Source: a virus
Virus record (IMG/VR): IMGVR_UViG_3300023174_000001
Span: 32,001 to 96,000 of that record
Length of the DNA stretch: 64,000 nt
Reading direction: 5' to 3' (one strand)
Shown: one piece after another, positions 10,096 to 22,466 of the stretch
Numbering within the stretch: position 1 is the first letter of the stretch
Layout of the letters: each line of letters opens with the position of its first letter
Made by a program: the position numbers and the translations under genes
The notes under the pieces: model-generated
Told to the model about the DNA's origin: nothing
The model's input: the letters and a program-made list of their open reading frames with translations, nothing else
Databases searched by the model: none

Positions 10096-10566
10096 CTAAC
10101 AGTTGTTTGGGTCAAAACCAGAGCCTGATGATGGAGAACAAGTCGCACCTGCTCCATATGGACCACAGGTGGAGGTTGATGTACAACAGCCGTAGGCAAT
10201 CTGTGCTGAAGTACATCTCCTATTAGTTCCAGTAGTTACCGTCATTGTAGAACTAAGCGTATTAGAACTTTCAGTTGCTCCTCCACCTGGATTGTTTACA
10301 GCAGTAATTGTAAAGGTATAAGTTCCATCAGTTGTTGGAGTTCCGCTAATATTTACATAAGTGTTAGCAAGATAAGTAAATGTCATTCCTGTAGGAATAG
10401 AGCCCGTTGTGACGCTTGCAGATGTAAAGTTAGAAACAACAAAACTGAGAGCGTACCCATATCCAGTGTAATAACTGCCAGTAAAAGTTCCAAAATAAAA
10501 ATTTGGTGTAGGTGCAACACTTACACCTTTTAGGGAACCAATCAGACCAGCAACTACACCAGACAT
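10096..10566 (-). CDS. Putative Ig-like virion/fibre-associated protein with Cys-rich tail
   Basis: ISGTPTTDGTYTFTITA putative-Ig motif. Confidence 0.6.
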   Translation of the reverse strand: MSGVVAGLIGSLKGVSVAPTPNFYFGTFTGSYYTGYGYALSFVVSNFTSASVTTGSIPTGMTFTYLANTYVNISGTPTTDGTYTFTITAVNNPGGGATESSNTLSSTMTVTTGTNRRCTSAQIAYGCCTSTSTCGPYGAGATCSPSSGSGFDPNNC

Positions 10567-12108: not shown

Positions 12109-14172
12109 TTAAGCGGCTCCACCGTCAATTGTAACTGCAAACAGTGTACCAGTGTTAGAGAGAGACATCAGTGTTGTGGTTCCGTCTCCAGCAAATGCTT
12201 GAATTAGGTTAGCAGTTCCAGCAGTAGCGTTTGCTCTTACAGCAAATGCTAATACATCGCTTGACACATTGATGCGTTGGGTGGTTGTGAAAGTTGTGGC
12301 ATAAGCAGCGTTTGTATTTACGGTTACAGCACCTGTAGAACCAGATACGGTAATACCGTTTCCAGCAACAAGGCTAGTTACACCAGATGATGCTGGGGTT
12401 ACCCAAGCGGGTACACCAGAAGTAATTGTAAGTACTTGGCTGTTATTTGCTGTTGAATAGGCCAACTGTGATGTGGTGTTTGCAGTTCCGTTGTAGAAAA
12501 TAACATTTGCCACACCAACAATGTTGGTAGCAAGGTTAGCGGAGGCTGACCTTAGGTTTGTTACTTCGGTTGTGGATGTTACGGTTATAGCATTTGCAGC
12601 AAACACATTGGCTGTAATGCTTCCGTTTGTGTCACGAACTGCAACGGTGTTGGCAGTGGCTGCTGTTGCTGTGTTGTAGCCATCTAGAAGGTCAGCGTTA
12701 AGGTTAGTAACTACTGTTGTAGATGCTACAGACAGAGGTGCTGTACCAGTTGTTTGAGTAGAAATCAACTGACCAGTAACATTTAGGCTGGTTCCAGTAG
12801 CAGCACCAAGTACAGGTGATACAAAGGTCGGGGTATTGTTCAATACAACCGCACCTGTACCTGTTACTGTGGTGAAGTCCGCGAGACGGGCATCCCAGTT
12901 GGCTGCTGTAGTTCCTGCTGTTGCAACACAAGTTAGAAGTACAGAAGTGTTAGCGGGTACTGTAATTACTTGGTTTCCACCAGAAGAGTTGACTGTCAAA
13001 ATTCCAGTGCTTCTATTCATAATATAGAAGGACCATCCAGTTGATAGTGTGCTAGTTACTGGAAGACCGACTGTTTGAGTAGTTGAGCCAGTAAATTGCT
13101 GGAAATAAGTACTTGTGCTGGTAAGAGTTGTGGTAGCGGCAGCGGTGGCAGTTGTTGAGTAACCTGTTAAAGCAGCCATTGTCTGCGTCGGGTTCAACCA
13201 AGCAGGAGCATTTGTTGAAGTGTTGTAGGAAAGAATAGAGTTGTTTACGGTTGCAACGGCAACTTTAGATGTGGTGTTGACGGCAGACTGATAAAGAAGT
13301 TGACCTTCATTTGCTGCTCCACCAGTAACATTGGCAGTAAGCGTTGAGACACCAGTTAGGTTTGCGGTGATTGTTCCAGCAGAGAAGTTTCCAGATGCAT
13401 CGCGGGCAACAATTGTCGAAACTGTGTTGGCATCGGTGATTGACTTACCTAGAACTTGGCTGGCAGAAAGAACGGTTGTACCGTTGATTTCATAAACTTT
13501 TCCAGATGCAAGGTCTATATCTTCTGAAGATGTCCAAGCAGCAGTTGCGTTTACCCAGTTTAAGGTCTTGTCGGTAGAACCCTTTACTGTAAGGCCAGCA
13601 CCGTCAGCGGTGACATTTGTTGCTCCGCCAATGTCCACTGTTGCGGTTGTGCAGGTTACTCCTTGATTAACAGAAACTCTAAATGCTGTTGCATTTGTGA
13701 TTGAAGTAATGGTTCCAGTAGTAAAGGTGCCTGTATTTTGAGTAACGGTCTGCCCAATTATAAGACCAGTGGTGTTGCTAGTAATAATAGTGTTGTTATT
13801 TGCTGTGGTTTCTACTGTTCTACCAAGAATTGCTGCTACAGAACCAAGTTCAATGTTCTTGTCGTCTACTTGAAGAGTAGAAGAGTTAAGTGAGGTAGTT
13901 GTACCGTTTACAGTTAGGTTTCCGCCAACGACAACATCGCCAGAAGTAGTAAGGCTTGTGATGCTGGCAGCACCTGCTAGGAGGGAGGCATCTTGTGAGT
14001 ACTTCAGGTTTCCCCAAAGTGTCCCCGTAACACCAATTTTAAACTTTTGAGTGTCAGTTTCAAAGCCAATTTCACCAGCAGCGAGAACAGGTGTAGCACC
14101 TGCTGCGGTTTGTGCGGTGACCCAGTTGGCAGCGGTATCTCTACGAAGTTGAATTTTAGTTAAAGCAGCCAT
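12109..14172 (-). CDS. Tail fibre protein with Mtd-N-like N-terminus
   Basis: Same N-terminal motif as 10566..11852; VTNLNADLLDG and GNLTVNGTTT fibre motifs. Confidence 0.8.
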   Translation of the reverse strand: MAALTKIQLRRDTAANWVTAQTAAGATPVLAAGEIGFETDTQKFKIGVTGTLWGNLKYSQDASLLAGAASITSLTTSGDVVVGGNLTVNGTTTSLNSSTLQVDDKNIELGSVAAILGRTVETTANNNTIITSNTTGLIIGQTVTQNTGTFTTGTITSITNATAFRVSVNQGVTCTTATVDIGGATNVTADGAGLTVKGSTDKTLNWVNATAAWTSSEDIDLASGKVYEINGTTVLSASQVLGKSITDANTVSTIVARDASGNFSAGTITANLTGVSTLTANVTGGAANEGQLLYQSAVNTTSKVAVATVNNSILSYNTSTNAPAWLNPTQTMAALTGYSTTATAAATTTLTSTSTYFQQFTGSTTQTVGLPVTSTLSTGWSFYIMNRSTGILTVNSSGGNQVITVPANTSVLLTCVATAGTTAANWDARLADFTTVTGTGAVVLNNTPTFVSPVLGAATGTSLNVTGQLISTQTTGTAPLSVASTTVVTNLNADLLDGYNTATAATANTVAVRDTNGSITANVFAANAITVTSTTEVTNLRSASANLATNIVGVANVIFYNGTANTTSQLAYSTANNSQVLTITSGVPAWVTPASSGVTSLVAGNGITVSGSTGAVTVNTNAAYATTFTTTQRINVSSDVLAFAVRANATAGTANLIQAFAGDGTTTLMSLSNTGTLFAVTIDGGAA

Positions 14173-19897: not shown

Positions 19898-20362
19898 CTA
19901 AGCCTTTTTGATTTTAGTTCTGGCTACTCCGTAGTACAAAGGGTTAGAAGAACTCAATCCCATTGCTTTGGCAATCTTGGTTAGTGAAATTCCATTGTCT
20001 TCATACTCACGGCGAAGTGCTTCGTGGTACGCTTCAACGCTCTGCTCTTTAGCAATAAGAATTCTCTGTACTGCTTCAGCCAACTGCTCTGGCGTAGCCT
20101 TGCTACGATTACGCTTGGTTGACGGTGCCACATCTGAGGTAGTCACGCGACGACGAACGCCAGCGTAAGTAACTCCAACAGCCTGAGCGATTGCGATTAG
20201 TGAGCCACCCTTGTTGTAATACTCAACAAGTAGGCGAGTGTATTCACGACTAGCGTCGTGCTGGGGGGACTTGGTGATACGAGAACCGTAAGCCTGTCTT
20301 GCTAGTGGTAGCAATTCAATTAGGCGTGGGGCGTATTCCTGTGTTAGTTCGTTGTTCTTCAT
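19898..20362 (-). CDS. Tandem-HTH DNA-binding protein
   Basis: Two similar units GSLIAIAQAVGVTY and ISLTKIAKAMGLSS. Confidence 0.6.
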   Translation of the reverse strand: MKNNELTQEYAPRLIELLPLARQAYGSRITKSPQHDASREYTRLLVEYYNKGGSLIAIAQAVGVTYAGVRRRVTTSDVAPSTKRNRSKATPEQLAEAVQRILIAKEQSVEAYHEALRREYEDNGISLTKIAKAMGLSSSNPLYYGVARTKIKKA

Positions 20363-20511
20363 TATCTATCCTTTGGTATTTGTCATTTGGTCAAGAACCT
20401 TTATACCTGATTATAGGCACAAGTTCTATTAGATAGCAAATTAATACAATAAGCCCAAGGCGAACAAGTTGTGCTAGTATCTATAAGCAAATCAATAACA
20501 TAGGAGTAAAT

Positions 20512-20646
20512 ATGGCAAAGAGCAAGGGTGGCGGAAAGCCAGTACCAGAAGTAAAGAGTTCTGGTAGACAGAACGGCAAGGCTAGTAAGAAACGCCCTAA
20601 GATTTTTGACAAAGAAAAGCGTCGCTTAGTTGTAAAAACTAACTAA
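20512..20646 (+). CDS. 44-aa basic peptide (not in ORF track)
   Basis: AGGAG RBS; MAKSKGGGKPVPEVKSSGRQNGKASKKRPKIFDKEKRRLVVKTN. Confidence 0.6.
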   Translation: MAKSKGGGKPVPEVKSSGRQNGKASKKRPKIFDKEKRRLVVKTN

Positions 20647-20690
20647 GTGTGATACCATATCTATATAACTAAATAGTGAAGCAACACCAA

Positions 20691-21035
20691 GGGGATGCCT
20701 GGTTTCGACTGGGAGACTTTAGTATGGTGAAGCACGCAGAGATGGCGGTCTCTCTTGAACCCGCTAAAACAATAAATGCTGAATCTCGTTCCGCATTCGC
20801 TCTTGCTGCGTAATCTTTAGTTAGGTTGCGTTCGCATTTGCCCCTAGAAAAGCAGTAGTTCTCGCTGGGCATCTAGGTTTCAAATAAAGAGAACAACCAA
20901 AGCCACGCAAGTGGAACGGTCTAGTGGCACTGCCGACCTGAAACGCAGTGTGTAGCAAACCGTGGCTGGTAAGCCTAAGCGTGTAGAAGAACATATAAAC
21001 CTTTCAGGACAGGGGTTCGACTCCCCTCATCTCCA
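20691..21035 (+). ncRNA. ssrA: tmRNA, tag (A)AESRSAFALAA
   Basis: GGGGATG/CATCTCC acceptor stem with G3-U, TTCGAC, resume context ATAAAT-GCT, tag ending ALAA-stop, T-arm GGGGTTCGACTCCCC; CCA not encoded. Confidence 0.95.
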
Positions 21036-21038
21036 CGC

Positions 21039-21295
21039 TTGCAGACAAAGAGAGCGTACAGCGGTCTGCCCAGCCTAGGTAATGGAAACTCTCAAGGACT
21101 GGCGTAGCCAAGGTGCTACGAGTCGATTCGGTAAGTAGTAGTCGGTAGTGCAAATCTACACAGTCCACAAAAGGCTCTTTACTGCTGAGTCCACAAAACC
21201 AACCAGCAGAGTGAAAACTTGAGACGACTCGTAAGAGTGGGAACCTCTGGAACCAAGGTCCAAACTTGGGAAAAGTCAGTACTAGGTTTGCCAAA
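21039..21295 (+). ncRNA. Unassigned structured RNA A
   Basis: Nested stems AGCCTAG/CTAGGTT, TCTCAAG/CTTGAGA, CGTAGC/GCTACG, CTGCTG/CAGCAG, ACTC-GTAA-GAGT, CCAAG/CTTGG; no credible ORF. Confidence 0.55.
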
Positions 21296-21313
21296 CTTTT
21301 TTGGTGTGTTGTA

Positions 21314-21342
21314 TTGACAAATGTATTTTTTGTCTGTACTAT
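21314..21342 (+). promoter_or_regulatory. SigA-type promoter
   Basis: TTGACA-N17-TACTAT. Confidence 0.75.
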
Positions 21343-21350
21343 CAAAATAT

Positions 21351-21512
21351 CAAAACTGCAAAGTGCGAGGAGTTAGGCACTCCCTAGCAACCCCTCCTAG
21401 TAACGAACCCGTGAGATGAAAAGATTGCCTTGGTAATCCAAATAGTCAATACCCTAGTAGACAACGGTACGGCGAGCAGTGAGACCAATTCACGATTGGG
21501 TTTGTAGTTTTG
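21351..21512 (+). ncRNA. Unassigned structured RNA B
   Basis: 12-bp closing stem CAAAACTGCAAA/TTTGTAGTTTTG beginning at the predicted TSS; internal hairpins. Confidence 0.55.
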
Positions 21513-21548
21513 TAAGTATTACTGAAAAGTAAAAATATACTTCTTGGC

Positions 21549-21611
21549 TGGATAGTCAAGGGGAGGGTTGTCTGTCAAGGCAGATACTAGGTTCGATACC
21601 TAGCAATCCAC
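21549..21611 (+). ncRNA. tRNA-like element lacking a proper D-arm
   Basis: Acceptor-like TGGATAG/CAATCCA, T-arm CTAGG-TTCGATA-CCTAG, stem-loop containing GTC. Confidence 0.5.
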
Positions 21612-21636
21612 AAACAGAGTGGCGACGGTTGCTCTG

Positions 21637-21790
21637 GAGTATGGCTGAACAACTCCAATCTTCAGATGGGGGAGTAAGGCACTATCGGACACTAGCGTGT
21701 CGTCTTAGCGGACAAACGATAGGTGTGCTGAAAAGCGGGCTAAGAACCGAACTGAATTGGCACTGGTAGTAAAATGCAGTCTACCTACTC
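21637..21790 (+). ncRNA. Structured RNA C (possibly manA-motif-like)
   Basis: GAGTA/TACTC and GGCTG/CAGTC closing stems, multibranch GCAC/GTGC, CTATCG/CGATAG, GACAC/GTGTC; resemblance to manA is from memory only. Confidence 0.5.
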
Positions 21791-21843
21791 ACATCACTCC
21801 ACGCTGGAGCCTCATTAGGTGAAAGCAATGTGGAGTGATATCC

Positions 21844-21914
21844 GCGTGTGTAGTTCAATGGTAGAACTCCAGTTTTCCAAACTGGTAGCGTAGGTTCGAT
21901 TCCTACTACACGCT
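21844..21914 (+). tRNA. tRNA-Gly(TCC)
   Basis: Cloverleaf: GCGTGTG/TACACGC, anticodon arm CCAGT-TTTCCAA-ACTGG, GGTTCGATTCC. Confidence 0.95.
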
Positions 21915-21915
21915 C

Positions 21916-21953
21916 GAAGCCTCACTTCCCGCCTCTCTGGAAGTGGGGCTTTT
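21916..21953 (+). terminator. Intrinsic terminator closing the RNA island
   Basis: AAGCCTCACTTCC/GGAAGTGGGGCTT plus T tract. Confidence 0.75.
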
Positions 21954-22058
21954 CAACTATTTGGAGTATGCTTTGTATAAATTTGTGTTTAGGTTTATAC
22001 TGCCTGAATGTCCAAAAAACGATACATTATTATATAACTTTTAGAGAAAGAGCGATAA

Positions 22059-22466
22059 ATGACTAATGATTACCAACCTCACTTTGATACTGACCTAGAG
22101 CGTGGCAAAGTTGGGGAAGACCTTCTCAATACTTTCTTGGCTGATTTGGCTGGAAAGAAGTTCGAGGTAAAGACTGACTATCGTGCTTGGGAAACTGGCA
22201 ACTTTTACATTGAGACTTGGCAGTACCGACAGCCAGACGCAAGTGATAAAAAAGAATCTGGAATCAATATCACACAGGCGGAGTACTGGTGCTTTGCTGG
22301 GCCGAACAAAAATGGGTTTGTAATGATACAAACTGAAGCCTTGAAAGAACTACTTAGGGCAACTGAATATCCTGTAGCACATCAGCCAATCTCGACGCTT
22401 GACACAAACGCCAGTAAAGGTAGGCTGGTGCCAGTAGTGGATGTTCTCAGAAAGATTGGTCTGTGA
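22059..22466 (+). CDS. PD-(D/E)xK nuclease-like protein
   Basis: FEVKTD...TGNFYIET motif. Confidence 0.55.
   Translation: MTNDYQPHFDTDLERGKVGEDLLNTFLADLAGKKFEVKTDYRAWETGNFYIETWQYRQPDASDKKESGINITQAEYWCFAGPNKNGFVMIQTEALKELLRATEYPVAHQPISTLDTNASKGRLVPVVDVLRKIGL

What the first reader, a model, noticed from the sequence alone, without database searches (positions are those of the whole stretch)
20691..21953. 1.25-kb RNA island: tmRNA and tRNA-Gly bracket four unannotated structured RNAs
Seen: no credible ORF, but back-to-back foldable units (A 21039-21295, B 21351-21512, tRNA-like 21549-21611, C 21637-21790, hairpin 21793-21839), an internal promoter and a final terminator. G-U pairs favour the + strand. 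Inference: a polycistronic ncRNA operon in which tRNA-like units act as processing punctuation to release novel RNAs.
Basis: partly seen in the sequence, partly recalled or inferred. Interest (0 to 1): 0.8.

Follow-up and report, generated by a model that had tools for sequence, protein, structure and literature searches.

The report
Phage stable-RNA cassette island beside tmRNA
A gene-free 1.3-kb stretch of a freshwater phage genome is a string of structured RNA genes (tmRNA, one tRNA, two tRNA look-alikes, a manA-class RNA and two apparently undescribed RNA families) that sit, here and in related phages, like cassettes between tRNAs.

Summary
The observation largely holds. The window lies in a complete 135-kb freshwater actinophage-like genome. 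Positions 20691-21953 hold no credible ORF. They hold a tmRNA, the genome's only tRNA (Gly-UCC) and, between them, conserved structured modules.

- Unit C is not new. It is a manA RNA (RF01745, 59.1 bits against a cut-off of 55.2).
- Unit A is composite: two hairpins, a non-decoding tRNA-like cloverleaf (TL), and a 117-nt RNA, "A2".
- A2 occurs in 24 viral contigs, often 1-5 nt from tRNAs, and covaries in 10 of 24 pairs.
It has a conserved promoter in 8 of 8 loci and covaries in 13 of 30 pairs.
- A2, B, TL and the mini-tRNA have no Rfam match.
- manA is also wedged between tRNAs in two cultured phages.
- Metatranscriptome contigs cover B in 3 of 4 runs.

Best reading: a two-promoter stable-RNA operon cut at its tRNA(-like) elements. 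The processing itself is inferred, not shown.

The parts
20630..20658 (+). Inferred tmRNA promoter: TTGTAA, 17-nt spacer, TGn-TACCAT (extended -10), about 33 nt before the tmRNA 5' end
   Evidence: Read from the sequence. A TGnTAnnnT-type -10 stands at the same alignment columns in 6 of 9 aligned relatives, and a TATAAT without the TG in a seventh. It scores 8/12, below the scan threshold, so one search does not list it. Inference.
20691..21038 (+). tmRNA, one-piece, tag peptide AESRSAFALAA, with a G3:U70 pair in the acceptor stem
   Evidence: ARAGORN. Rfam RF00023, 109.2 bits against a cut-off of 47, model positions 1-374. Acceptor pair read from the sequence.
21041..21085 (+). Two trailer hairpins of module A1: GCAGAC...GUCUGC (21041-21069) and CCA...UGG (21070-21085)
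   Evidence: Compensatory changes seen by eye between the window, L023 and L031: GCAGAC/GUCUGC to GUAGAC/GUCUAC, and CCA/UGG to CCG/CGG. No formal count was made.
21097..21167 (+). TL: a non-decoding tRNA-like cloverleaf. Acceptor GGACUG/CAGUCC plus A; D arm UAGC/GCUA; variable hairpin in place of the anticodon arm; T arm GUAG-UGCAAAU-CUAC; no variable loop
   Evidence: 13 copies in 12 loci at a mean column identity of 90%. The anticodon-arm stem changes compensatorily (CGAUU/AGUCG to CAACU/AGUUG). Not called by ARAGORN at default settings and no tRNA-model hit at E<=10.
21171..21287 (+). A2: a conserved structured RNA of about 117 nt. P1 CUGCUG/CAGCAG with the 16-nt loop AGUCCACARRACCAAC; P2 AGY-GAAA-RCU; P3 ACUC-GNRA-GAGU; P4 with the apical hairpin CCAAG-GUCCAAA-CUUGG; invariant tail AGUACUAGGU
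   Evidence: Found in 24 IMG/VR contigs. 21 sequences aligned (20 distinct): 95.9% of cells paired, 10 of 24 pairs with changes on both sides, 18-49% paired when partners are slid. No Rfam hit at E<=10. An RNA-library contig covers 21171-21261 in X19.
21297..21302 (+). U-run after A2; possibly a weak end of the first transcription unit
   Evidence: Read from the sequence. Present in the window, L018, L021 and L032, but replaced by tRNA-Asn in L019. Not called as a terminator by the scan. Inference.
21314..21342 (+). Promoter of the second unit: TTGACA, 17-nt spacer, TACTAT
   Evidence: Scan match 10/12. Hexamers are invariant (TAC[TC]AT) in 6 of 6 aligned loci while the spacer diverges. TTGACA-17-TATTAT and TTGACA-17-TATCTT stand before the divergent B' copies in L031 and L032.
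21351..21512 (+). B: a 162-nt structured RNA closed by a 12-bp terminal helix (21351-21362 with 21501-21512). Hairpins H1 GUUAGG-CACUC-CCUAGC (21372-21388), H2 variable (21423-21438), H3 (21485-21499)
   Evidence: Covariance model R1 finds 8 copies (7 distinct) in 27 sources. 92.6% of cells paired, 13 of 30 pairs with changes on both sides, 27-48% when slid; the alignment was fitted by the model. RNA-library contigs cover it in X15, X16 and X17. No Rfam hit.
21514..21563 (+). Two tetraloop hairpins: h1 UUACU-GAAA-AGUAA (21519-21532) and h2 with loop GGAU (21541-21563)
   Evidence: The stems covary and the loops recur as CU-GAAA-AG or CU-GGAU-AG in L019, L017, L032, L049 and L006. For h2, 3 of 9 pairs change on both sides.
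21565..21610 (+). MT: a D-armless mini tRNA-like element. 6-bp closing stem, 4-bp hairpin, T arm CUAGG-UUCGAUA-CCUAG, then A and the invariant CAAAC
   Evidence: 8 sequences aligned by MAFFT: 95.7% of cells paired, 8 of 24 pairs with changes on both sides, 35-50% when slid; T arm 3 of 5 pairs compensatory. ARAGORN calls it only at a lowered threshold, with a 2-nt 'anticodon'.
   Evidence: Rfam RF01745, 59.1 bits against a cut-off of 55.2, model positions 1-192. P1 covaries among relatives. The same leader follows tRNA-Glu in L062.
21793..21839 (+). h3: a long hairpin, AUCACUCCAC...GUGGAGUGAU
   Evidence: Conserved in the window, L018, L021, L019 and L026, with one compensatory pair (U-A to C-G) seen by eye.
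21844..21915 (+). tRNA-Gly(UCC), the only tRNA of the 135-kb genome
   Evidence: ARAGORN. Rfam 71.6 bits. The whole-genome tRNA search gives this one match over the cut-off.
21919..21953 (+). Intrinsic terminator: GCCUCACUUCC, 9-nt loop, GGAAGUGGGGC, then UUUU
   Evidence: Read from the sequence. The stem changes compensatorily in L019 and L026 (CACUUCC/GGAAGUG to CGCUCCC/GGGAGUG). The 9-nt loop puts it outside the rules of the scan.

Best explanation
The stretch is the stable-RNA locus of a lytic-type freshwater actinophage. It is an array of independently exchangeable RNA cassettes placed downstream of a phage tmRNA.

In this genome it probably runs as two transcription units:
1. tmRNA promoter -> tmRNA, trailer hairpins, TL, A2.
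2. B promoter -> B, two tetraloop hairpins, mini-tRNA (MT), manA-class RNA, hairpin h3, tRNA-Gly, terminator.

The tRNA, the tmRNA and the two kinds of tRNA-like element (TL, MT) would offer the host's tRNA-processing enzymes (RNase P at the 5' side; RNase Z or exonucleases at the 3' side) the cut sites that free each structured RNA as a discrete molecule. This is how genuine tRNAs flank the same cassettes in relatives.

The tmRNA and tRNA-Gly serve translation. By homology the manA-class RNA is a free-standing RNA of the kind recently shown in vitro to self-assemble into closed RNA-only oligomers. A2 and B are two further, apparently undescribed, structured RNA families of unknown activity that travel in the same way.

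What is shown: gene identities, module borders, conservation, covariation, promoter and terminator conservation, and presence in RNA libraries. What is inferred: the two units, the cleavage at tRNA-like elements, and any activity of A2 and B.
For: Identity:
- tmRNA, tRNA-Gly and manA pass the Rfam cut-offs.
- The genome is a complete 135,069-bp virus record with terminal repeats. It has one tRNA and one tmRNA, both in this island.
- Its primase is nearest to Actinomycetia phage DSL-LC01 (68%) and to Microbacterium phages (about 50%).
- The 14 DNA runs holding half or more of the stretch's words are labelled lake water, freshwater, aquatic or plain 'metagenome'.

Cassettes:
- BLAST maps show A1, A2, B, MT and manA present or absent independently in relatives, with borders at tRNA(-like) 3' ends.
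- A2 lies within 5 nt of a tRNA, tmRNA or TL on at least one side in 9 of 24 loci. Examples: L066 and L072, tRNA-Leu <2> A2 <3> tRNA-Asn; L062, tRNA-Ser <1> A2 <3> tRNA-Gly.
- In one search, MT abuts the manA-like RNA (within 3 nt) in all 7 loci where both were detected.
- L062 reads tRNA-Glu <5> manA-like <1> tRNA-Trp; its manA match scores 54.9 bits.
- Rhodococcus phage Francesca has a 72.9-bit manA that fills the gap between tRNA-Met and tRNA-Lys.
- Cyanophage S-CREM1 has manA annotated between tRNA-Leu and tRNA-Asn.

Structure:
- Covariation counts for A2, B and MT.

Transcription signals:
- A TTGACA-17-TAnnnT promoter stands before all 8 B or B' copies.
- A terminator follows tRNA-Gly, and in L023, L031 and L032 a terminator follows manA directly.
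- L023 has promoter-manA-terminator as a stand-alone gene.

RNA:
- Contigs from four metatranscriptome runs of four studies cover B (3 of 4 runs), MT plus the 5' half of manA (1), A2 (1) and the tmRNA (1).
- None covers the flanking coding DNA 20400-20643 or 21925-22200.

Precedent:
- The manA family forms decamers and a 60-mer cage in vitro (bioRxiv 10.64898/2026.07.01.735769, passages read).
- GOLLD sits in tRNA arrays and forms cages (PMC12286853, passages read).
Against: - No RNA ends were observed. Read laying returned only assembled contigs, which show neither ends, strand nor level, and the runs were chosen because they hold words of this island.
- One RNA-library contig (X19, 21299-21383, 5 mismatches) spans the B promoter. 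So there is read-through or DNA in at least one relative.
- The tmRNA promoter is below the scan threshold, and the U-run after A2 is not a canonical terminator.
- A2 has no tRNA(-like) neighbour within 5 nt in 15 of 24 loci, some of them cut by contig ends.
- The two strongest cyanophage manA matches (P-SSM2 at 181.6 bits, P-SSM4 at 184.1 bits) are not next to tRNAs but upstream of ORFs, as in the original cis-regulatory reading.
- The B alignment was fitted by the model that encodes the structure.
- The A2 and MT structures were drawn by me from the same alignments on which they were counted.
- B rests on 7 distinct sequences from about 4 lineages.
Confidence: 0.65

Rival explanations
1. The tRNA-like elements are mainly recombination or insertion sites (att-like or homing targets) through which cassettes are swapped. 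The mosaic is then a by-product of mobile DNA, and TL and MT have no role in RNA processing.
For: - Module borders coincide with tRNA(-like) 3' ends ending in UCCAC.
- In L031 a further tRNA-like element, unlike the tmRNA internally, carries the same 3' trailer as the window's tmRNA.
- 13 TL copies share an invariant acceptor stem at 90% identity, like a repeated element.
- An HNH/HTH-like ORF lies just upstream at 19898-20362, and Francesca's tRNA array starts after an HNH endonuclease gene.
Against: - The MT T arm, closing stem and inner hairpin keep pairing through compensatory changes. That argues for selection on the RNA fold, not only on a DNA site.
- No integrase was seen next to the island.
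- This reading is not exclusive of the main one.
Confidence: 0.12
2. manA, A2 and B are cis-acting regulators (riboswitch or attenuator type) that control read-through into the downstream tRNA or gene. This is how manA was first classified.
For: - Weinberg et al. 2010 list manA as a riboswitch candidate in 5' UTRs (PMC2864571, passages read).
- In P-SSM2 and P-SSM4 manA lies upstream of ORFs.
- In L004 and L023 the conserved ORF follows manA within about 155 nt.
Against: - Here and in L062, Francesca and S-CREM1 the neighbours are tRNAs at 0-5 nt, leaving no room for an expression platform.
- In L023, L031 and L032 a terminator follows manA.
- A2 is sandwiched between tRNAs.
- B starts at its own promoter and is closed by a helix joining its two ends.
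Confidence: 0.07
3. A2 and/or manA are self-cleaving ribozymes that trim the neighbouring tRNA, as the HDV-like theta ribozymes do in gut phages.
For: - Their position is directly 3' of tRNAs, with spacers of 1-5 nt.
- Theta ribozymes are reported next to phage tRNAs (PMC10879173, search listing and start of abstract only).
Against: - No ribozyme family of Rfam matches at E<=10.
- I could not draw an HDV-like nested double pseudoknot on A2 by hand.
- A2 also occurs without an upstream tRNA (15 of 24 loci).
- manA constructs were refolded and gave intact oligomeric assemblies by cryo-EM.
Confidence: 0.06
4. The units are decayed tRNA genes and neutral spacer with no function of their own.
For: - TL and MT look like degenerate tRNAs.
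- Single-sequence fold energies of A and B are not better than shuffles.
Against: - A2 is 92-96% identical between phages whose adjacent tmRNAs are only about 71-74% identical (L019, L024, L032).
- There are compensatory changes in A2, B and MT.
- B has a conserved dedicated promoter.
- The units are present in RNA libraries.
Confidence: 0.04

Closest known systems
manA RNA motif (Rfam RF01745; Weinberg et al. 2010, PMC2864571)
   Same: Unit C, 21618-21795, matches the full model above the curated cut-off. The P1 hairpin with its GACG loop covaries among relatives.
   Different: - The score is low (59 bits, against 182-184 bits in P-SSM2 and P-SSM4).
- The hosts appear to be freshwater actinobacteria, not marine cyanobacteria or gamma-proteobacteria.
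- It is flanked by a mini-tRNA and a tRNA rather than lying in a 5' UTR.
- The tRNA-flanked context is also seen in Francesca and S-CREM1. It is not mentioned in the passages I read of the 2010 paper. The 2026 cryo-EM preprint has 0 occurrences of 'tRNA' in its main text.
GOLLD and ROOL ornate RNAs in phage, prophage and Mycobacterium tRNA arrays (PMC12286853; Morgado 2020, PMC7549688, seen only as a reference)
   Same: They are structured RNAs without a known function, carried by phages, embedded among or linked to tRNAs. Like manA, they form RNA-only closed assemblies.
   Different: - A2 (117 nt) and B (162 nt) are far smaller.
- Nothing in the island matches the GOLLD or ROOL models at E<=10.
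- No oligomerisation of A2 or B is known.
Phage T4 tRNA gene cluster with the small stable RNAs 'species 1' and 'species 2' (rnaC, rnaD). This is recalled, not retrieved: one search found no paper on it.
   Same: Stable RNAs of unknown function are co-transcribed with phage tRNAs and released by the host's tRNA-processing enzymes.
   Different: The RNAs are unrelated in sequence. The T4 host is a proteobacterium, and T4 has no tmRNA.
tRNA punctuation, and the 't-elements' of plant mitochondria (PMC1920247, search listing and start of abstract only); MALAT1-mascRNA (recalled)
   Same: tRNA-like structures that are not decoding tRNAs define transcript ends through RNase P and RNase Z. This is what MT and TL are proposed to work like.
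   Different: Those systems are organellar or eukaryotic. Here the released products are structured non-coding RNAs in a phage, and cleavage has not been shown.
HDV-like theta ribozymes next to phage tRNAs (PMC10879173, listing only)
   Same: A small structured RNA directly 3' of tRNAs in tailed phages.
   Different: No ribozyme model matches, and no HDV-like fold was found by hand.
Bacterial Y RNAs (YrlA) with tRNA-like domains (recalled)
   Same: A long terminal helix joins the 5' and 3' ends (as in B), and tRNA-like modules are present.
   Different: There is no Y_RNA or YrlA match at E<=10 and no Ro/TROVE protein in the phage genome. In B the tRNA-like element lies outside the closing helix, not inside it.

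Membership tests
tmRNA (RF00023) | Covariance-model score above the curated cut-off over the full model | tested here: met
   109.2 bits against 47, model positions 1-374.
tmRNA (RF00023) | Tag reading frame ending in a stop, tRNA-Ala-like acceptor with G3:U70, and a T arm | tested here: met
   ARAGORN gives the tag AESRSAFALAA*. The acceptor GGGGAUG/CAUCUCC with G3:U70 was read from the sequence.
tRNA (RF00005), for tRNA-Gly 21844-21915 | Model score above the cut-off; cloverleaf with a 7-nt anticodon loop | tested here: met
   71.6 bits against 29. ARAGORN calls Gly(UCC).
tRNA (RF00005), for MT 21565-21610 and TL 21097-21167 | Model score above the cut-off; D arm, 7-nt anticodon loop, variable loop | tested here: not met
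   - No tRNA-model match at E<=10 at either place.
- ARAGORN at default settings calls neither. At a lowered threshold it calls MT with a 2-nt 'anticodon'.
- MT has no D arm and a 6-nt loop.
- TL has 5-, 10- or 11-nt loops in the register compatible with its T stem, and no variable loop.
manA RNA (RF01745) | Model score above the gathering cut-off over the full model | tested here: met
   - Window: 59.1 bits against 55.2, model positions 1-192.
- L004, L018 and L023: 64.9 bits.
- L062: 54.9 bits, just under the cut-off.
- Other clade copies were found only with my own clade profile.
manA RNA (RF01745) | Position in the 5' UTR of a protein-coding gene (the basis of the 'cis-regulatory' label) | tested here: not met
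   - In the window it lies between MT and a hairpin plus tRNA-Gly.
- A terminator follows it directly in L023, L031 and L032.
- This feature is met in P-SSM2 and P-SSM4.
manA RNA (RF01745) | Self-assembly into closed oligomers (2026 preprint) | not testable with these tools
   Shown in vitro for other members. The kissing-loop positions could not be mapped, because the figures and supplements were not available.
GOLLD / ROOL | Match to the Rfam models | tested here: not met
   Neither is among the 9 matches at E<=10 over 20500-22100.
Y RNA / YrlA | Rfam match; an associated Ro (TROVE) protein | tested here: not met
   No match at E<=10. TROVE gives 0 matches in the whole phage genome, while the control genomes respond. 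A Ro protein of the host cannot be excluded.
Self-cleaving ribozymes (HDV-like/theta, hammerhead, twister and others) | Rfam match or the characteristic fold | tested here: inconclusive
   No match at E<=10. Whether Rfam 15 holds a theta model was not checked. The hand search for an HDV-like fold in A2 was negative but not exhaustive.

The most novel reading that the evidence does not exclude
A2, B and the manA-class RNA belong to one functional class of phage 'cassette RNAs'. They are released from tRNA/tmRNA arrays by the tRNA-processing machinery and then self-assemble into RNA-only oligomers or cages, as shown in vitro for manA and for GOLLD/ROOL.

The CCA-rich loops of A2 (AGUCCACAAGACCAAC, GUCCAAA) and the tRNA-like TL and MT elements would mimic tRNA ends. 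In this way they would sequester or decoy host factors that act on tRNA 3' ends or elbows, for example tRNA-targeting defence enzymes.

On this reading manA is not a riboswitch at all, and tRNA arrays are the natural launch pads for self-assembling phage RNAs.
Probability: 0.12. Interest if true: 0.9.

Novelty: new variant of a known kind. Interest (0 to 1): 0.64.

Why it matters
- It gives two candidate new RNA families with a clear genomic grammar. A2 is found in 24 viral contigs. B has its own conserved promoter.
- It gives two kinds of non-decoding tRNA mimic (TL and MT).
- It ties the long-orphan manA motif to tRNA/tmRNA arrays in three unrelated phage groups: this freshwater clade, an actinophage grown on Rhodococcus, and a cyanophage.
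- A 2026 preprint shows that manA RNAs build closed RNA cages in vitro but offers no biological context. GOLLD, which also forms cages, likewise sits in tRNA arrays.
- The shared context suggests a testable rule: tRNA arrays in phages carry and release self-assembling or otherwise free-standing structured RNAs.
- Two cultured phages (Francesca, S-CREM1) make that rule directly testable.

Tried and rejected
1. Single-sequence folding. A gave z +0.47, B gave z -1.28, and only the MT region gave -3.07. This is not informative for A or B.

2. Rfam at E<=10 over 20500-22100. Nothing for A1, A2, B or MT beyond weak tmRNA_permuted and STnc320 chance-level rows.

3. Relaxed ARAGORN. It produced many mutually overlapping weak calls; only the MT call was consistent with the comparison.

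4. Ro/TROVE protein in the genome: none.

5. Searches for B outside the clade.
   - The viral contigs pattern scan gave the same six loci plus two hits without any further similarity (L033, L034).
   - The single metagenome scan gave two duplicates and one hit in an unrelated repeat region (L035-L037).

6. MT pattern scan: only clade members, plus L049 of the same type.

7. A2 in genome contigs. Three exact-pattern hits (an archaeal MAG, a Mediterraneibacter MAG and a Methanobacteriota MAG) have no match to the A2 profile, so I take them as chance.

8. The phages collection by blastn.
   - The island finds only tRNA-Gly, a tmRNA fragment and the Francesca manA.
   - The Francesca and S-CREM1 manA sequences find only themselves.
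   - So no cultured phage with A2 or B was found at that sensitivity.

9. DSL-LC01, the nearest isolate, has no manA or tmRNA match.

10. S-PM2, Syn9 and S-RSM4 have no manA match at E<=0.001.

11. Inter-unit base pairing (A2 or B against the other units, RNAduplex against 25 shuffles): no z below -1.7.

12. An HDV-like fold for A2 was tried by hand and not found.

13. X16 joint 21036->20691 (table 5c). Only the conserved ends of the tmRNA match, so I read it as another organism's permuted tmRNA, not as a feature of this phage.

14. Parts of the island without RNA-contig cover (21071-21131 and 21742-21802 in all four runs) say nothing either way.

Supplementary files of papers were closed, and those of PMC2864571 may already list tRNA neighbours of manA.


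Full report
**What the window is**

The window is bases 32001-96000 of a 135,069-bp IMG/VR virus record with direct terminal repeats, rated complete. Its genes include:
- a primase-polymerase/D5 helicase,
- a class II ribonucleotide reductase,
- methyltransferases,
- an Mtd-like tropism protein.

The primase is closest to Actinomycetia phage DSL-LC01 from lake water (68%) and to Microbacterium phages (about 50%). The 14 DNA runs holding half or more of the stretch's words are labelled lake water, freshwater, aquatic or plain 'metagenome'. I read it as a freshwater actinophage.

**Check of the observation**

ARAGORN and Rfam place a tmRNA at 20691-21036/38 (109.2 bits, tag AESRSAFALAA) and tRNA-Gly(UCC) at 21844-21915 (71.6 bits). 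A whole-genome search shows that this is the only tRNA of the phage.

The frames inside the island are short, the longest being 113 aa on the minus strand. None matches Pfam or PHROGs.

Rfam also places a manA RNA (RF01745) at 21618-21795: 59.1 bits against a curated cut-off of 55.2, over the full model. Nothing else between 21039 and 21617 matches any of the 4227 families at E<=10.

Folding energies of A and B are not better than shuffles, so the case had to be made by comparison.

**Relatives**

Four searches brought in relatives:
- The downstream ORF gave 12 loci.
- A tmRNA pattern gave 17.
- A corrected A2 pattern gave 24.
- An MT pattern gave 10.

A BLAST map and a table of features per locus show a mosaic. 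The same modules recur in different combinations, and their borders fall at tRNA or tRNA-like 3' ends. Examples:
- window: tmRNA <55> TL <-3> A2 <55> B <20> MT <-3> manA <50> tRNA-Gly
- L019: tmRNA <0> A2 <4> tRNA-Asn <41> B <42> MT <-3> manA <53> tRNA-Gly
- L023: tmRNA <49> TL <58> manA
- L066: tmRNA <253> tRNA-Leu <2> A2 <3> tRNA-Asn
- L062: tRNA-Tyr <3> tRNA-Glu <5> manA-like <1> tRNA-Trp <7> tRNA-Asn <187> tRNA-Ser <1> A2 <3> tRNA-Gly

**Unit A is composite**

Its first 134 nt (A1) are shared with L004/L023 and L031 but not with L018 or L019. A1 consists of two hairpins with compensatory changes, seen by eye, and a tRNA-like cloverleaf, TL (21097-21167).

TL has 13 copies in 12 loci. Its acceptor stem (GGACUG/CAGUCC) and its T arm are invariant, and its D arm nearly so. 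Its 'anticodon' arm is a hairpin with loops of 5, 10 or 11 nt, and it has no variable loop. Neither ARAGORN at default settings nor the tRNA model detects it.

**A2 (21171-21287)**

A2 is the best-populated new module. It occurs in 24 viral contigs. It is 92-96% identical even between phages whose adjacent tmRNAs are only about 71-74% identical (L019, L024, L032).

I counted a five-helix structure that I drew from a MAFFT alignment of 21 sequences (20 distinct):
- 95.9% of cells pair.
- 10 of 24 pairs change on both sides.
- Sliding the partners gives 18-49% paired.

The clearest covarying pairs are:
- Y42-R47 in the AGY-GAAA-RCU hairpin (C-G 11, U-A 8, U-G 1),
- three pairs in P1,
- two pairs in the GNRA hairpin P3.

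A2 lies within 5 nt of a tRNA, tmRNA or TL on at least one side in 9 of 24 loci. In the other 15 it does not, or the contig ends there.

**Unit B (21351-21512)**

A TTGACA-17-TAC[TC]AT promoter is invariant in its hexamers in 6 of 6 aligned loci, although its spacer diverges. The divergent B' copies in L031 and L032 have TTGACA-17-TATTAT and TTGACA-17-TATCTT. The 12-bp terminal helix begins 9 nt after the -10 hexamer.

A covariance model found 8 copies (7 distinct) in 27 sources. On the alignment fitted by that model:
- 92.6% of cells pair.
- 13 of 30 pairs change on both sides, 6 of them among the 12 pairs of the terminal helix.
- Slid controls give 27-48%.

The interior between the hairpins could not be resolved with so few sequences. 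B was not found outside this clade.

**The tRNA-like unit (MT)**

What is conserved is:
- a hairpin with a GGAU or GAAA tetraloop (21541-21563),
- then a 6-bp closing stem (21565-21570 with 21604-21609),
- enclosing a 4-bp hairpin,
- and a T arm with a UUCRA-type loop,
- followed by A and an invariant CAAAC.

On a MAFFT alignment of 8 sequences, 95.7% of cells pair, 8 of 24 pairs change on both sides, and slid controls give 35-50%. The G-U at the third pair of the closing stem is not conserved, so an alanine identity like that of the tmRNA is unlikely.

In one search, MT abuts the manA-like RNA (within 3 nt) in all 7 loci where both were detected.

**manA in context**

- In L023 manA stands alone, between a TTGACA-18-TAAGAT promoter match and a terminator match.
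- In L031 and L032 a terminator follows it.
- In L062 a 54.9-bit copy lies between tRNA-Glu and tRNA-Trp, with the same CAAACAG leader as in the window.
- Rhodococcus phage Francesca has an unannotated 72.9-bit manA at 76482-76664. It fills the gap between tRNA-Met (which ends at 76478) and tRNA-Lys (which starts at 76666).
- In cyanophage S-CREM1 the authors' own annotation puts manA at 10215-10429, between tRNA-Leu (ending at 10213) and tRNA-Asn (starting at 10429).

Against generality, the two strong matches in P-SSM2 and P-SSM4 lie upstream of ORFs with no tRNA nearby. Three further cyanophages have no manA at all. So the tRNA-flanked context is one of two contexts, not the only one.

**Transcription**

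Six RNA runs held small shares of the island's words. I laid four of them, from four studies. Their contigs cover:
- B in three runs: 21377-21527, 21377-21608 and 21363-21515, with 0-1 mismatch,
- MT plus the 5' half of manA in one run (21560-21709),
- A2 (21171-21261), the tmRNA (20699-20897) and 21299-21383 in a fourth.

None covers the flanking coding DNA 20400-20643 or 21925-22200.

The caveats are real. These are assembled contigs, without ends, strand or level. The runs were chosen through words of the island itself. DNA carry-over cannot be excluded. The piece across the promoter argues for read-through or DNA in a relative. I count this as a moderate hint that B is an abundant RNA.

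**Mechanism**

The anatomy fits a stable-RNA operon of the phage tRNA-array type. Its tRNA(-like) elements would be recognised by RNase P and by the 3'-processing enzymes, and so would release the RNAs between them. That step is inferred from:
- the 0-5 nt spacing to genuine tRNAs in relatives,
- the selection that keeps the acceptor-plus-T-arm stack of MT and TL,
- established knowledge of RNase P substrate recognition (acceptor/T-arm minihelix; recalled).

For function:
- The tmRNA and tRNA-Gly are self-explanatory.
- For manA, the only experimental datum is a July 2026 preprint showing that family members assemble in vitro into octamers, decamers and a 60-subunit cage (passages read). That text treats manA as a putative 5'-UTR element and never mentions tRNA.
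- GOLLD forms cages too and sits in tRNA arrays.
- For A2 and B, I commit only to 'free-standing structured RNAs released from the array'. Their activity is unknown.
- A search for specific pairing between units found nothing above shuffles.

**Verdict**

- One of the four 'novel' RNAs is known.
- What is new is two unmatched RNA families (A2, B), two non-decoding tRNA mimics (TL, MT), and a cassette grammar that links manA to tRNA/tmRNA arrays.
- I found nothing in print on this link, in searches and in the passages read. The supplements were closed.

Noticed in passing
L002 3001-3162 (PP978770 76482-76664): Rhodococcus phage Francesca carries an unannotated manA RNA (72.9 bits) that exactly fills the gap between tRNA-Met and tRNA-Lys in its tRNA array. 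This is a cultured system in which manA could be studied.
   Followed up: yes
L048 3746-4644 (OP535465 9745-10643): In cyanophage S-CREM1 the annotated wcaG, manA and abiF RNAs are interleaved with tRNA-Met, Leu, Asn and Gly within 900 bases, so wcaG and abiF may follow the same cassette grammar.
   Followed up: partly
L062 3976-4162: A 187-nt stretch between tRNA-Asn and tRNA-Ser has no Rfam match at E<=1 and holds two GUAGGUUCG T-arm-like motifs. It may be another cassette RNA or a pair of degenerate tRNA-like elements.
   Followed up: no
L031 9328-9410 and L018 6375-6465: A third kind of tRNA-like element: acceptor GGACUG or GGGCUG with CAGUCC, T arm CGAGG-UGCGAUU-CCUCG, and long inner hairpins. 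In L031 and L018 these elements flank small ORFs that look like membrane proteins, inserted between the tmRNA and A2.
   Followed up: no
window 19898-20362 (- strand): A 154-aa ORF just upstream of the island has weak PHROG matches to HNH endonuclease and HTH DNA-binding proteins. A homing-type nuclease next to a mosaic RNA locus could drive the cassette exchange.
   Followed up: no
window 12109-14172 (- strand): A 687-aa protein with an N-terminal Mtd_N (major tropism determinant) domain, which hints at a diversity-generating retroelement target gene in this phage.
   Followed up: no
window 21163-21172, 21191-21200, 21258-21264, 21606-21615: The motif (G)UCCA(C/A)A recurs at the 3' ends of TL and MT and in two conserved loops of A2. 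The 5' arm of h3 (CACUCCACGCU) resembles the 3' end of the tmRNA plus its trailer (CAUCUCCACGCU). The meaning is unknown.
   Followed up: no
window 20512-20646: A 44-aa lysine/arginine-rich ORF directly upstream of the tmRNA is conserved in relatives. The inferred tmRNA promoter overlaps its 3' end.
   Followed up: partly
loci L057-L073: tmRNAs of related phages carry different tags (ANTSAYALAA, AERTSAFALAA, AESRSAFALAA, AESRSAFALVA, ANSRSAFALAA), while the A2 next to them stays nearly identical.
   Followed up: no
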